A model generated the notes under the pieces. The model did not search any database, was not told the origin of the DNA, and saw only the letters and a list, made by a program, of their open reading frames with translations. A stretch of 64,000 nt of DNA from Camelus ferus (Eukaryota): positions 29,142,001 to 29,206,000 of the forward strand of contig NC_045696.1 of assembly GCF_009834535.1 (NCBI RefSeq), given 5' to 3'. Numbering within the stretch: position 1 is the first letter of the stretch; every line of letters starts with the position of its first letter. Below, in pieces: positions 3,999-60,462 of the stretch. Position numbers and translations under genes: made by a program.

Positions 3999-4440
3999 TG
4001 ATTTATTTTATATGTTACTGGATTCTGTCTGCTAATATTTTGTTGAGGATTCTTGCATCTAGGTTCATCAATGGTATTGGCCTATAGTTTTCTTTTTTGG
4101 TAGTCTCTTTGTCTGGCTTTGGTATTAGAGTGATGGTGGCTTCATAGAATGAATTTGGGAGTATTCCCTCCTCTTCAACCTTTTGGAAGAGTTTGAGAAG
4201 AACTGGTATGAGCTCTTCTTTGTATGATAGTACTCCCTGGTGAAGTCATCTCATCCTGGACTTTTGTTTGCAGAGAATTTTTCATTGCTGATTCTATTTC
4301 ATTTCTAATGATTGATCTGTTCAAATGATCTATTTCTTCTTGATTTAGTTTTGGTGGACTGTACATTTCCAGAAACTTGTCCATTTCTTCTAAGTTGTCC
4401 AATTTATTGCCATATAGTTGTTCATAGTATTCTCTTATGA
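3999..4440 (-). mobile_element. Young LINE-1 ORF2 fragment (inverted part of a 5'-inverted L1)
   Basis: ORF 4175-4402 (-) reads MDNLEEMDKFLEMYSPPKLNQEEIDHLNRSI; the downstream minus-strand sequence reads [14 protein letters not shown]. Both are L1 ORF2 linker/RT-start motifs. Confidence 0.92.
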
Positions 4441-4950
4441 CTAGACGAAGAAGTTGTGGTATATTTATACAATGGAATACTACTTAGCCATAAAAAAGAA
4501 TGAAATAAATGTCATTTGCAGCAACATGGATGGACCTGGAGATTGCCATTCTAAGTGAAGTAAGCCAGAAAGAGAAAGAAAAATACCACATGATATTACT
4601 AATATGCAGAATCTTAAAAAAAAAAAAAAAGACAAACTTATTTACAAAACAGAAACAGACTTACAGACATAGAAAACAAACTTATGGTTACGAGGGGGAG
4701 AAGGGGGTGGGAAGGGATAAATTGGGAGCTCAAGATTTGCAGATACTAACTAATACATATAAAATAGATAACCAACAAGTTCATACTGTATATATAGCAC
4801 AGGGAACTATATTCAATATCTTGTAGTAACCTACGGTGAAAAAGAATATGAAAGTGAGTATGTGTATGCTCATATATGACTGAAGCATTATGCTGTACAC
4901 CAGAATTTGACACAACATTGTAAACCGACTATACAATAAAAAAAAAAAAT
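4441..4950 (+). mobile_element. Young LINE-1 ORF2 C-terminus, 3' UTR and poly(A)
   Basis: KLWYIYTMEYY then MSFAATWMDLEIAILSEVSQKEKEKYHMI (ORF2 end), then 3' UTR and AATAAAAAAAAAAAAA at ~4936-4949, followed by (AT)n. Confidence 0.93.
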
Positions 4951-54885: not shown

Positions 54886-55388
54886 TAAAAATGTATATAT
54901 ACATACAATAAATTATATATATATATATAAAATGGGATATTATTTGGCCATAAAAAAGAAGGAAATCCTGCCATATGCAACAACATAGATGGACTTTGAG
55001 AGCATTATGCTAAGTGCGATAAGTCAGACAGAGAAAGACAAATATTTTATGACCTAACTCTTATGTGAAATAAAAAAAAAAATAATGTAAAACAAACAAA
55101 CAAAAAAAAAAACCTTATAGAAAATGAGCATAGAATGATGTTTTCCAGAGGCTGGGGATTGGTCTAAGGGCACAAACTTCCATTTATAAGATAAATGAGT
55201 TCTGAGGATCTAATATATAGCATGGTGACTAAAGTTAATAGTATTCTATTATATATATTTGAAAATTTCTAAGAGAGTAAATCTTAAATGTTCTCACCAC
55301 ACACACATACACACACACAAAAAAACATAATTATGTGAAGTGATGAATGTCTTAATTAACCTTATTCTAGTAATCATTTTGCAATACA

Positions 55389-55854
55389 TGTCAACTAAAA
55401 AAAATGCACATTAGAGCTAGGAGGTGAGTTTTATTCAGTGGCTTACTGAGAACCATCAGTCCAGGAGGCAGCCTCTCAGATAGCACTGAGGAACTGCTCC
55501 AAAGAGGTAGGGGAGGAGCCAGATTATACATATGAATTTTTTTGTCTGGGAAATACATGTAGTCAAGCATATGTCTTGGTAAAGAATTACTATTAATCAC
55601 ATGCACATACACACAAAACAGATAACTAGAGTTAAAGATTTCAGTGCCTATCTATGTATAGGAAGATGCAAAAATCTGGGGTCCTTGAATTTCTTCCTCA
55701 GGTATGCATTTTAACTATCTAGGAGCCCATATATCCAAAACACCAAATACTTCATCCTGAATTCCTTGCAGGATGTATGTGGGTATTTGGAGGCCGTGAC
55801 TGTAGTGGGTAATGACTTGATCCTTGTAGAATTGGAATGGTGGGCAACATTCTT

Positions 55855-55903: not shown

Positions 55904-56000
55904 ATACAGAGGCTGGGGATTGGTCTAAGGGCACAAACTATATATATACACACACACACACACATATGTATACATATATGTCATATATATATGTGTATAC
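55858..56000. repeat. (TG)n / (TA)n(CA)n microsatellite containing a 33-bp insert
   Basis: Directly visible. Confidence 0.95.
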
Positions 56001-56716
56001 ATATCAAATCATCGTGTTGTATACCTTACATTTATACAAGATTATGCATCAATTATATCTCAATATAGCTGGGGAAAAAAGATAGCATTACAAAATTATG
56101 GGGAAAGGAAAGATATTTTTCATGTTATTATAGGGAAAATTGTCTCACTATATGGAGAAAATTAAATCTGGATTTCTACTTCATCTGTCTGTTGATATGT
56201 ATCAATACCTTTCATAGTTTTATAATAAATCAGTCATCTAGTGAGTAAACGGGTTTTCCTGAGTTATGTGAGTCATTCTAGCACATTAATTGAACCTGAA
56301 GAGGGGGTGGTAGTGTAAGCAAACAGGGTAGGGGCTCCCCAGAGAAAAAAGAACCAGGCATAGCTTTCTTGACATCTTTGGCCTAAATAATTTTGTGATC
56401 CAAGCCTGGCCACAATGCTTGCCCTTGAATTGGTCTCAGTAATTAATGATCTTAAGGGAACAAAGGAATGCAGGAACAAAGGAAAAGCAATCAAGAAACA
56501 ATTGTTCAGAGATACAATAGGGTCCTAGTTCCTCTTCAAGGGATTTACATAACAATCTAATACATTATCACTGAGTTCTGCAGGAACTAAGATCCCCATC
56601 CAGGTGGAGGATGGGAACGACACTCTGAGACCCCAGACTGATGGGAACCTATGGAATGATGCTGTTGACCTTTTCTGATGCTCATGACTTCAATCAAGTA
56701 AAGAGTGAGCTCTGTC

Positions 56717-57538
56717 TGCCCCCCTTATAAGGGATGGAAATACCTGTTGGTATTCATAGACACCTTTACAGGATGGGTAGCAGCTTTCCTCACCAGAACA
56801 GAAAAAGGAATAGAAGTGTCAAAATTTCTGCTCAAAAAATAATACTAAGGTTTGGGTTACCAAAAAGTTTACAGAGTGATAATGAACCCTCCTTCTCTGC
56901 CAAGGTGACTCAACAGGTTTCTTCAACTCTGGGTATTAACTATGCCTCCACTCTTCCTGGAGGCCCCAGTCCTCAGGCAAGGTAGAAAAAGCAAATCACG
57001 TTCTAAAAAGAACACTTGCTAAACTATGCCAGCAAACTTCAGAAACCGTCCTGCCTATAGCCCTTCTAAGAATAAGAACGGCCCCTAAGGGAATTTTAGA
57101 ACTTAGCCCATTTGAAATGATGTATGTAAGGCCCTTTTTAACTGCAGATTTCCTGTTTGATGAGGAGATGCATAAACTAGTCTCCCACATTATTAGCTTG
57201 AGCCAAGTTCAAGGAGCCCTCCAGGAATATGCAAACAAAGTGTTGTCCTTTCCCGAAGAGGAAGAAGTTAAAGTCCCCGTCCAGTCAGGGGATTCTGCCT
57301 TACTAAAAACTTGGAAGGAGGGTCCCCTGAAGACCTGCTGCAACCAAAATGGAAGGGACCATATCAGGTATTACTAAGCACCCCAACTGACGTTAAGCTA
57401 CGAGGAATTGCTAGTTGGGTACATCTGTCCAGAATAAAACCTATAGCTTATAAGCCCCAACAGGAACCAGGAGAGACCTACACTTGCGAGGCAATACAAG
57501 ACCTCAGGTACCTGTTTAAAAAAAACAGTACCATGTAG
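56717..57538 (+). pseudogene. pol: Gammaretrovirus-like (ERV1) pol integrase fragment, frameshifted
   Basis: PPYKGWKYLLVFIDTFTGWVAAF...RFGLPKSLQSDNEPSF...WRPQSSGKVEKANH (rve core) and [33 protein letters not shown] (GPY/F C-terminal domain). Confidence 0.93.
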
Positions 57539-58199
57539 TGATGATTACAATAGTTCATAACTGCTTACATATATCCAATTAAAGCTCCTAAAATAAGTAT
57601 TTTAATATACAGTGGGAAAGATGTATGTTTTCAGTAAAAGAATTTCATAAAATACAAAAATTTCATGCATGATCAGGATTTTAAATATTTAACAAATTCT
57701 AAAAGTTCTTTGTAGCTCCAGCTAACTTTGAGATGCTTTAAATTTAGGAAACCTGGGGCATCTTAGATATTAAGTTAACCTGGATTTTTTTAATATGTTA
57801 AGTTAAATATAATCAGTCATATTATATCAGTCAACAAGTCTATCGATTGAAGATGTTTAACTGCCTTTTAAGTCTTTTTGTTGTTACAGACCATCAAACT
57901 GCTGTTACAAAAGTGTGTCATCTTTAAGAAAATTCATCAGAAGTCAATGGAAACACTGGGTTACAGCAGCCCCACATGAGATGCTGGCTGTGCAAGGATT
58001 CAAGTCCACACCCTCAGCCCTTGGATGCAAAAACAAAAGGCTATCCTGCCCCTGGGGCCCCTAGATTAGACATTAGAGATTTTTACTCCCTGATAGGCAG
58101 GGTCAATGCCCCTACTCAGCCTGGAAGCAGTTTCAGAAGACCGACCTTTGCCCCTTTGCAACCCCATAGATTATGGGAGTAAAATCTCTGAGGGGGGAA

Positions 58200-58838
58200 T
58201 GAGACAGGGAGGAGGCAATGCATAGCCATTCAAGGAATGCTACAGAAATTAACATCAAAATGGTGAAAGATTCCACCCCTAGTAGGCCTCGAGGATCAAA
58301 ATGATGGGAGATTTAACTTCTAGTAGATCTTGAGCTTCATTATATGCCCATTGTAATATATTAACATGGTGAGTAACATGCCCACAGGCCCATGGCTGTC
58401 CCAAGGCTAGCCACAAAAGGTCAAAGCGGGAAATGGCCAACTTCTTGGGAATCCCAGCCCTTTCCCCAGGCTAGCTAGACTGGTCCTTCCACTTATTAGC
58501 ATATGAAGCTACCAAAGCCCATAAAAACTGTCAACAAGGTGCCTCATGGTGGCTGCCTCTCTCTCTCTCTCTCCATTCAGAAATGGCCCATACTCTGTTT
58601 ATGGAGTGTGTATCTACTTTTACTCTAATCTAAGCACCCAACCCCCACACCTTGTGACCTTTCTCTTGCCTTTCAATATATCTCTCTAAATAAATCTACC
58701 TTTACTCAACTGTGACTCGCTCGTGGATTCTTTCCTGCATGAAGCCAAGGACCCACACTTGGTGGGGCACGTCCCAGGGGCTCAGCCAAAGCCTGGGACA
58801 TGGCCCTCCTCATGCCCCACATCTGTTTTCTTGCATCA
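58200..58838 (+). mobile_element. ERV 3' LTR preceded by polypurine tract and env-tail remnant
   Basis: PPT GAGGGGGGAA at 58190-58199; LTR TGAGAC...GCATCA; CATAAAA at ~58520; AATAAA at ~58688. Confidence 0.85.
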
Positions 58839-58990
58839 AAATTACATAAGTCTTATTGTTATGTCTCTGAAAAAGGTGCTTTGAACAAGTCTTATTAGTT
58901 ATTATTTTATCTATCCCCAAATATTTATTCTAGATAACCGATTTCCAGTCATGCTTCTCTTATTGAAAAATAATAAAGGATACTTCTTTC

Positions 58991-58994
58991 AACA

Positions 58995-59031
<37 letters not shown>
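58991..59031. repeat. (CA)n microsatellite, probable decayed poly(A) tail
   Basis: Starts 13 nt after AATAAA (58972-58977) and ends directly before the target duplication. Confidence 0.85.
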
Positions 59032-59034
<3 letters not shown>

Positions 59035-60462
59035 TGAACTCTGTCAATTTTTGTCCCCACTCTATGCTGAATCCACTATGCTTAAGCCCTCTCATGAATA
59101 TACATACAGTGCCCAAGCCTCTTCATGAATATGCATGTACCCTTAGCTTAAAACATCCCCAATTTTGATGTTTGGAGAGACACTGCTTTGGGAGAGATCC
59201 CCAGTGTTCCCCTTACTTGCTGCAAGTAACAAATCTTTCCTTCCCCAGCTCTCTGGCTTGGTCGTATCTTTTGGCTCAACACCCACCAAGAGGCAAACCC
59301 AGTTTTCAGGTAACAGTGGGAACCTCTGATTTACCACCAGCTGGTCAGAGAAAACAACTTGGACTTGTGATTGGCATCCTGAGTGGGAGGGGACTGTGGG
59401 AATCCCCAGTTTTAGGCAGTTGGTTAGAAGCGTAGGAAACAACATGGGCTTATCATTGGTGTCTTGAGTGGAGGGTGATCAAACCTGCAGAATCTGCTTC
59501 TGTCTCTAGGTAAACAGGAAACTGAGTTGAATTCTCAGACATCCTGCTGGCATCTGAGAATTTCTTGGTGTGGGGAAGCCTCCACTCATACTCCGCAATT
59601 GGGTCCAGGAAACTTTTGGAACAAGTAACTGCACATCTCCAAGAAAAAGACAAGAAAGCTTGATAGAAAAATGAACAAAACATCTGAAAAATTAATTTGC
59701 AGAAGAATTCAAACATATGACAAGCATATGTAGAGCTGTTCAAACTTACTATTGATCAAATAATTACAATTTAACAATGAGATATAACTTTATATTAATC
59801 AGTATATTTAAAATCAGAACATGGTGTCATTCCAGTTATTGGCAAGGATGTGGGCAGACAGGAACTTTCATGCTGTGCTGGCAGTGTATACTGCAACAGC
59901 TATTCTGGAAAGCCATCTGGCAATATTTAGCAAAATTACGTATGCGTGTTTCCTATGACACAGAAATCTGTCTTAGTATATATTCCAGAAAACACTTGCA
60001 CAAATCAGTATGATGATATTTATAGAAAGACTCATCTTAGCATTTTTTTTTTATAGTTATAGAAAACATGAGTGTCCTAGGTGTTCATCACCAGGACATT
60101 GGTCAGGAAAATGTGACAGATACGAACTATAAGGCAGCTGCAGGACACAGTGAGCTGCATGTGCATATAGTAGTACAGACGGCCCCAAAACAGAGCATTG
60201 CCCAAGGCAGAAATTGATCAATGTCACCACATACACACACATGCATGTGTGTGTGAGCACACAGATACACCCCAAAAAAGTAGTAATTTATTCCATCATT
60301 TGAATTAGTTGGAATGATATGATTTTAGATCAGATATGTATGTTTAACAGTTACTATCTATGAAAGACTTAATCAAATGTCTGTGTATACATATGCATGT
60401 ATATGTGTATATACGTGTGTGTATGAAATATATTTTTAAAAGGCATAGTTAAGGTTATCATC

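What the first reader, a model, noticed from the sequence alone, without database searches (positions are those of the whole stretch)
56703..59045. Apparent L1-retroposed ERV read-through transcript inserted inside another LTR
Seen: 56717-59031 is flanked by a 14-bp direct repeat with one mismatch (GAGTGAGCTCTGTC 56703-56716; GAGTGAACTCTGTC 59032-59045). It starts abruptly inside integrase, just after where the first catalytic Asp should be. It then runs through an env remnant, the PPT and a complete 3' LTR, continues ~150 bp past the LTR, and ends with AATAAA and a (CA)n tail. Established: retroviral integrase makes 4-6 bp TSDs with LTR ends, while L1 TPRT makes 7-20 bp TSDs with 5' truncation and an A-tail; L1-made ERV copies are known for HERV-W but normally stop at R. 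Inference: a provirus elsewhere was transcribed through its own LTR poly(A) site and copied here by L1, carrying donor flank that identifies the source locus.
Basis: partly seen in the sequence, partly recalled or inferred. Interest (0 to 1): 0.72.

Follow-up and report, generated by a model that had tools for sequence, protein, structure and literature searches.

The report
Retrovirus remnant recopied by LINE-1
A 2.3-kb dead piece of an ancient retrovirus, with about 150 extra bases after its normal end, sits inside an unrelated viral repeat with the marks of having been copied in from RNA by the LINE-1 jumping gene, a known process seen here in a less usual run-on form whose source locus is still to be found.

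Summary
The anatomy is real. A 14-bp repeat (one mismatch; the only such pair in 64 kb) brackets 56717-59031: a gamma-like integrase remnant cut four codons after its first catalytic Asp, a PPT, a TG..CA LTR (58200-58838), 153 AT-rich bases with AATAAA, and (AC)20. The interrupted host is an unrelated solo LTR with its own 4-bp duplication. Best reading (0.75): L1 target-primed reverse transcription of a polyadenylated RNA that ran through the LTR's poly(A) signal into source-locus flank. Not shown: the empty site, the source locus, the LTR's true 3' end, the env identity (five searches blank) and which promoter made the RNA; no genome or sister copy was reachable. The tail is CA, not A, and the endonuclease site fits only if 2-3 A's merged into the tail. 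L1-made ERV copies are known (HERV-W, HERV-H, HML-2, and ARTenvV in antelopes); a kept U5 plus flank is the only unusual trait. The scan's earlier notes hold no look-alike. New variant of a known kind; one dead copy; interest 0.33.

The parts
56310..56313 (+). Left 4-bp duplication (GTAG) of the host solo LTR; the DNA on both sides reads as one older LTR-like repeat (MER21-like, label recalled)
   Evidence: family label from memory, not tested
56314..56716 (+). 5' part of the host solo LTR (starts TGTAAG), 43% G+C, unrelated to the inner LTR
   Evidence: 36 of 100 shuffles reach the score against the inner LTR
56700..56702 (+). AAA just 5' of the left repeat; if counted in the duplication (17 bp) the bottom-strand nick reads CTTT/AC
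   Evidence: extension is inferred, the right copy is preceded by CAC
56703..56716 (+). Left copy of the 14-bp direct repeat (candidate target-site duplication)
56717..57538 (+). 5'-truncated class I (gamma-like) integrase remnant, lacking the first catalytic Asp, broken by three frameshifts
   Evidence: Pfam rve E 5e-4 and 2e-3 (below cut-off), MLVIN_C E 7e-14; tblastn of 9 relatives in four segments; 49-65% identity to 29 relatives
57539..57890 (+). AT-rich stretch (27% G+C) in the env position; decayed env by recalled motif spacing only, or captured host DNA
   Evidence: no hit; no template elsewhere in the window
57891..58189 (+). 3' internal region before the PPT (47% G+C); env C-terminus/3' untranslated by position
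   Evidence: identity inferred
58190..58199 (+). Polypurine tract abutting the LTR
58200..58838 (+). Inner 3' LTR, TG..CA, 639 bp, with an intact AATAAA at 58689-58694 and 144 bases after it (MER41-like, label recalled)
   Evidence: 3' end supported by composition only
58839..58991 (+). 153-bp AT-rich stretch after the LTR, no primer-binding-site start, AATAAA at 58972-58977, ends in CA 14 bases later; candidate source-locus flank
   Evidence: no similarity to either LTR or to the rest of the window beyond shuffles
58992..59031 (+). (AC)20 array in the place of the poly(A) tail
   Evidence: tail origin inferred
59032..59045 (+). Right copy of the 14-bp direct repeat
59046..59315 (+). 3' part of the host solo LTR (ends GGTAACA; poly(A)-signal-like AACAAA near 59227)
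59316..59319 (+). Right 4-bp duplication (GTGG) of the host solo LTR

Best explanation
Three nested events. An old LTR-like repeat was hit by an ERV1 that left a solo LTR (integrase, 4-bp duplication). Later, in the germ line, an RNA polymerase II transcript at another locus ran through the 3' end of a different, already decaying gamma-like provirus, passed the AATAAA in its 3' LTR and was cleaved and polyadenylated at the next AATAAA, about 150 bases into host DNA. L1 ORF2p nicked the solo LTR at a T-rich bottom-strand site, primed on the poly(A) tail and reverse-transcribed 2.3 kb before stopping inside integrase; second-strand cleavage 14-17 bases away made the duplication. The A tail later turned into (AC)20. 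Shown: the anatomy and the repeat. Inferred: that the repeat is a duplication of a single-copy site, that 58839-58991 is source flank, that the array was an A tail. Open: whether the RNA started in the provirus (about 0.35 of the 0.75), in a host gene or lncRNA (about 0.22) or in an upstream L1 (about 0.18). The copy is dead: no 5' LTR, no gag, no RT, broken integrase.
For: Unique 14-bp repeat whose inner edges meet the start of integrase similarity (within 3 bases) and the end of the array exactly. Abrupt 5' end in mid-gene, no 5' LTR. AATAAA 14 bases before the array, ending at CA; only 4.1% of window positions have AATAAA ending 10-30 bases upstream and this is 1 of 6 (AC)7+ arrays in the window with such a signal upstream. 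Sharp G+C drop at the LTR's CA, no primer-binding-site start after it. Host halves have TG..CA ends and a 4-bp duplication and are unrelated to the inner LTR. AAA before the left repeat gives CTTT/AC; similar sites (CTTT/AA, CTTT/AT, TTTT/AC) are listed for L1-made insertions in PMC4859970. Poly(A) tails can become dinucleotide arrays (PMC3812793). 14 of 24 listed runs, 7 studies, two organisms, hold 0.53-0.58 of the sampled words while non-insert DNA is only 24% of the query, so insert-like DNA exists outside this assembly.
Against: No A tail is left (two A's); AC arrays are common here (6 in the window) and one may have come with the copied DNA. The 14-bp repeat as it stands fits TTTT/AA at 1 of 6; the 4-of-6 fit needs 2-3 A's to have merged into the tail, and 33 of 667 host-LTR sites fit as well or better; CTTT/AC itself was not among the table rows I saw. 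The LTR's own AATAAA is intact, so read-through is assumed. The inverted-repeat test does not favour 58838 over 58991. No empty site, sister LTR or source locus was seen. The run shares stop at 0.58 for a reason I could not determine, and the junctions were not checked in those runs.
Confidence: 0.75

Rival explanations
1. Same L1 copying, but not a proviral transcript (a subset of the best explanation's 0.75): an orphan 3' transduction from an L1 upstream of or inside the source provirus, or the 3' end of a host mRNA/lncRNA into whose last exon the provirus had inserted.
For: The insert holds no promoter or 5' end, so the three RNA sources leave the same product. Orphan transductions are a recognised class (PMC4859970, PMC7058536, passages); ERVs are also transcribed by readthrough from other promoters (PMC11359688, passage). 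The 153 bases are 40% T and 27% G+C, as in 3' UTR ends.
Against: No L1 or host-exon sequence is in the insert. 24% of 150-base windows here hold AATAAA by chance, so no gene end is needed to explain the signal.
Confidence: 0.4
2. Retroviral, not L1: the family's LTR really extends to the CA at 58991, that end was joined by integrase, the other end was joined aberrantly, giving a truncated provirus with a long duplication; the AC array grew at the junction.
For: 58991 ends in CA and matches the LTR start as well as 58838 does (5 of 8). ERVs with 13-450-bp flanking duplications, one a truncated provirus, are reported for HML-2 (PMC5488345, passages).
Against: The G+C change point sits at 58821-58835, not 58991; it would give a 300-base AT-rich U5 with a second AATAAA placed exactly like a used poly(A) signal; 40 bases of AC lie between that CA and the right repeat and are absent from the left side.
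Confidence: 0.12
3. DNA-level event: a templated insertion or small duplication at a staggered break copied 2.3 kb of genomic DNA that already ended in a CA microsatellite; or a small tailed insertion came first, a provirus entered it, and a deletion removed the 5' part.
For: The tail is not poly(A). Microsatellites are frequent in this window.
Against: Leaves the AATAAA-14 bases-array spacing and the AAA before the left repeat to chance; no local template in the window; the multi-step form needs a deletion ending exactly at the repeat's edge.
Confidence: 0.1

Closest known systems
HERV-W processed pseudogenes (PMC5016936, PMC5537654; passages)
   Same: Class I ERV sequence with a 5-15-bp duplication, attributed to L1; 135 of 213 HERV-W loci are of this kind.
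   Different: Those end at R (U3-R 3' LTR) with a poly(A) tail and TT/AAAA site; this one keeps the whole LTR and 153 more bases, has an AC array, lacks any 5' R-U5, and lies in a non-primate (camel, by earlier notes).
HERV-K(HML-2) 2q32.1 retrocopy, and HERV-H retroposed copies cited there (PMC3590776; passages)
   Same: Single L1-made ERV copy outside HERV-W, 13-bp duplication with one mismatch, short tail.
   Different: Spliced RNA; tail about 90 bases after the LTR signal and the last about 150 bases of the LTR missing; no host flank described in the passages seen.
ARTenvV retrocopy in Hippotraginae (PMC9604959; section 9 whole and passages)
   Same: Artiodactyl, ERV-derived RNA, 14-bp duplication, L1 mechanism.
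   Different: Copy of the spliced mRNA of a co-opted env gene, over 97% identical to its source, with empty sites shown; ours is non-coding, unspliced over the part kept, and unanchored.
L1 3' transduction, orphan type (PMC4859970, PMC7058536; passages)
   Same: Read-through past an element's poly(A) signal to a downstream one, 5' truncation, flank that tags the source.
   Different: The element read through is an LTR; whether an L1 drove the transcript is unknown.
HML-2 insertions with long duplications (PMC5488345; passages)
   Same: ERV sequence, including a truncated provirus, between duplications longer than 6 bp.
   Different: Here a non-LTR stretch, a poly(A) signal and an array separate the LTR from the duplication.

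Membership tests
HERV-W-type L1-processed ERV pseudogene | 3' LTR cut to U3-R (no U5) | tested here: not met
   144 LTR-like bases follow the LTR's AATAAA up to a CA end, then 153 more
HERV-W-type L1-processed ERV pseudogene | 5' end at R-U5 | tested here: not met
   Insert starts inside integrase; 5' truncation removes the test region
HERV-W-type L1-processed ERV pseudogene | Duplication of 5-15 bp | tested here: met
   14 bp, one mismatch, unique in window; empty site not seen
L1 target-primed insertion | Poly(A) tail after a poly(A) signal | tested here: inconclusive
   Signal at the right distance but the tail is (AC)20
L1 target-primed insertion | Endonuclease site TTTT/AA or YYYY/RR at the duplication's 5' edge | tested here: inconclusive
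   1 of 6 for the 14-bp form, 4 of 6 (5 of 6 YYYY/RR) for 16-17 bp; 33 of 667 host sites reach 4 or more
L1 target-primed insertion | Single copy of the repeat at the empty site or in sister LTRs | not testable with these tools
   No genome; scans found no sister copy; read laying gave no result
Orphan L1 3' transduction | Same-strand L1 upstream at the source locus | not testable with these tools
Integrase-made provirus | LTR ends at both junctions and a 4-6-bp duplication (PMC6407205, passage) | tested here: not met
   No LTR at the 5' junction; 14-bp repeat. Met by the host LTR (4 bp, one mismatch)
Class I (gamma-like) ERV pol | Integrase core plus MLV-type C-terminal domain | tested here: met
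   MLVIN_C above cut-off; rve pieces below cut-off; relatives carry the same two families
Retroviral env | Detectable similarity to env TM | tested here: inconclusive
   No Pfam, homologue or PDB hit; the one phmmer hit is a 6458-aa tandem-repeat protein with 26 summed stretches; decay could hide it

The most novel reading that the evidence does not exclude
A camelid ERV1 lineage has LTR poly(A) signals leaky enough that L1 repeatedly copied its read-through RNAs, so that a set of retrocopies each carries a barcode of its parent provirus: HERV-W-like L1 mobilisation outside primates, with parent-offspring links that R-terminated copies cannot give, and a way to test what makes an ERV RNA a good L1 substrate.
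Probability: 0.1. Interest if true: 0.6.

Novelty: new variant of a known kind. Interest (0 to 1): 0.33.

Why it matters
As one dead copy it matters little. If the source is found it is a clean case of 3' transduction through an LTR, shows that this provirus was transcribed in the germ line while L1 was active, and warns that ERV fragments counted as decayed proviruses include L1-made copies. Reviews still call L1 mobilisation particular to HERV-W (PMC5537654) and note its unexplained absence in New World monkey ERV-W (PMC6995185), so several flank-tagged copies in camelids would be useful; one copy does not show that.

Tried and rejected
Genome search for the flank and for sister LTRs: no genome held. 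Laying contigs of four runs on the locus: no result, so junctions, empty sites and source flank are unchecked in reads. Scans for sister copies: viral contigs 0 hits in 4 of 4 scans; species genomes 0 in 2 of 2; metagenomes 29 loci, all chance matches limited to the 18-base pattern plus at most a few bases; plasmids and phages no match. These collections are not mammalian, so blanks say nothing about copy number. Env tests blank; a language-model look-up did not run. Rejected: inner and host LTR of one family or a recombinant; inner LTR as a 5' LTR (PPT before it, no primer-binding-site start after it); local template for the flank or the AT-rich stretch (weakest case 2 of 15 shuffles); terminal inverted repeat as proof of the LTR end; assembly artefact as sole explanation. 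Host gene context: Pfam on 177 of 183 listed stop-to-stop frames of 62 aa or more (5 over microsatellites and 1 already scanned were dropped, and frames over a short stretch left of the host LTR were not listed) found only L1 and integrase domains. Literature: 10 searches showed no listing that describes an L1-made ERV copy running past U5 into source flank; the library lacks most subscription papers and Pavlicek et al. 2002 was not held, so this is weak. PMC8605555 (camel TE survey, passages) and PMC10194239 (references only) added nothing. No supplements were read; those of PMC5016936 and PMC9604959 could hold comparable cases.
Full report
Setting. The window is mammalian and mostly repeats: L1 pieces, one tRNA-derived SINE, no host coding domain in 177 frames scanned. 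Two earlier notes on this genome call it camel; the SINE looks camelid to me by recall.

The repeat. The 14-mers at 56703-56716 and 59032-59045 differ at one base. No other place in the 64 kb, on either strand, is within one mismatch, and between 56314-56900 and 58839-59315 no other 13-mer pair is that close. The chance at a fixed pair of sites is 4.7e-8, or 1.7e-4 allowing 60 bases of slack at each end. The repeat does not extend: AAA precedes the left copy, CAC the right.

The insert. Nine related integrases align in four segments from 56720 to 57535, i.e. three frameshifts, and none aligns to 56314-56716. Pfam gives rve pieces below cut-off and MLVIN_C at 7e-14: a class I, gamma-like pol. 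The closest proteins found are 49-65% identical (29 proteins); the only one named to a species is a bat hypothetical protein, so no family name comes from a tool. After pol come about 350 bases of 27% G+C and 297 bases of 47% G+C. By position and by the spacing of motifs that I recall from gamma-type TM proteins this is decayed env, but Pfam on all six frames, a homologue search, PDB and a phmmer scan of 1.84 billion proteins found nothing real, so captured host DNA is not excluded. A 10-base PPT (58190-58199) abuts TG at 58200. The LTR has an intact AATAAA at 58689 and a CA at 58837-58838. G+C falls from 47% to 27% with the best change points at 58821-58835. The inverted-repeat test is no help: of 27 candidate CA ends, 58838 ties with 58991, 58819 and 58784, and 58708 scores slightly higher. 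The 153 bases after the LTR do not start like a primer-binding site and match neither LTR nor the rest of the window beyond shuffles. They hold AATAAA at 58972, 14 bases before (AC)20. This is 1 of 6 (AC)7+ arrays in the window with a signal upstream, against a background of 4.1% of positions.

The host. 56314-56716 and 59046-59315 start TG and end CA, are flanked by GTAG and GTGG, and show no similarity to the inner LTR (36 and 94 of 100 shuffles score as high). They read as one solo LTR of 673 bases set by integrase into an older LTR-like repeat (MER21-like by recall). So there are three layers, and the two inner ones have different duplication lengths, 4 and 14.

Endonuclease site. Taken as 14 bases the nick site is ACTC/TT, a poor fit (1 of 6 to TTTT/AA). 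If the AAA before the left copy belongs to the duplication and its right-hand twin was lost in the tail, the site is CTTT/AC (4 of 6; 5 of 6 to YYYY/RR); 33 of 667 host-LTR sites fit at least that well and I tried several offsets, so this is modest support. PMC4859970 (passages and table rows) lists CTTT/AA, CTTT/AT, CTTT/AG and TTTT/AC for real insertions; I did not see CTTT/AC.

Outside evidence. 14 of 24 listed runs, from 7 studies and two organisms (13 A, 1 B; DNA guessed or kind unknown; one may be the assembly's source), hold 0.53-0.58 of the 312 sampled words of 56300-59330. The insert is 76% of that stretch, so insert-like DNA exists in other animals; the junctions were not checked, since laying contigs returned no result, and why the share stops at 0.58 is unexplained. 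All scans for sister copies in non-mammalian collections were blank or chance. The scan's own notes hold no look-alike.

Mechanism. The 5' truncation, the 14-17-bp duplication, the placed poly(A) signal and a tail-position array are the set expected of L1 target-primed reverse transcription; poly(A) tails can turn into dinucleotide arrays (PMC3812793, passages). Integrase makes 4-6-bp duplications at LTR ends (PMC6407205, passage), which fits the host and not the insert. I put the L1 reading at 0.75. The RNA must then have passed the LTR's signal and used the next one; 24% of 150-base windows here hold AATAAA, so an ordinary flank suffices. What drove the transcript cannot be read from the copy: the provirus (about 0.35), a host gene or lncRNA (about 0.22) or an upstream L1 (about 0.18). 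Against the L1 reading stand a longer LTR ending at 58991 with an aberrant other end (0.12; long duplications around HML-2 elements are reported in PMC5488345, passages) and a DNA-level copy that already ended in a CA array (0.10).

Known kin. It works like a HERV-W processed pseudogene but fails that group's defining LTR structure: those end at R (PMC5016936, passages). A review calls L1 mobilisation unique to HERV-W (PMC5537654, passages) and New World monkey ERV-W lacks it (PMC6995185, passages), yet an HML-2 copy and HERV-H copies are reported (PMC3590776, passages), and an L1-made copy of the ERV-derived ARTenvV mRNA with a 14-bp duplication is described in antelopes (PMC9604959, section 9). 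Read-through plus flank is the logic of L1 3' transduction (PMC4859970, PMC7058536). Ten searches listed no paper on an ERV copy running past U5 into source flank, but the library is partial, the key 2002 paper was not held and no supplements were read.

Verdict. A real, well-formed nested insertion; most likely an L1-made copy of an RNA that read through an ERV LTR. New variant of a known kind, single and non-coding, with the two decisive tests (source locus, empty site) still to run. Interest 0.33; 0.6 if it proves to be one of a series.

Noticed in passing
window 55146-55178 and 55907-55939: Exact 33-bp direct repeat: the first copy lies in an old L1 3' end, the second is wedged between a (GT)23 array and an AT/AC run; looks like a short local templated insertion or an assembly patch.
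   Followed up: no
window 4018-4950: L1 with an ORF2 piece on the minus strand (RVT_1) joined near 4440 to a 3' end on the plus strand: looks like a 5'-inverted (twin-primed) L1 insertion.
   Followed up: no
window 55389-55848: Another LTR-like element with TG..CA ends just left of the nest, no clear 4-bp duplication by eye; this 4-kb stretch is a pile of LTR insertions.
   Followed up: no
window 57539-57890: 27% G+C, rich in both A and T, beside a 43% G+C integrase with no in-frame stop in its aligned segments: far more decayed than pol, or captured host DNA; it ends in a pyrimidine tract and AG like a splice acceptor.
   Followed up: partly
window 56300-59330: Best-holding runs of both organisms stop at 0.53-0.58 of sampled words; an index ceiling or a diverged copy, not resolved.
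   Followed up: no
window 58254-58335 and 59079-59136: Short two-copy internal repeats in the U3 parts of the inner LTR (41 bp, 73%) and of the host LTR (27 bp, 78%), as is usual for LTR enhancers.
   Followed up: no
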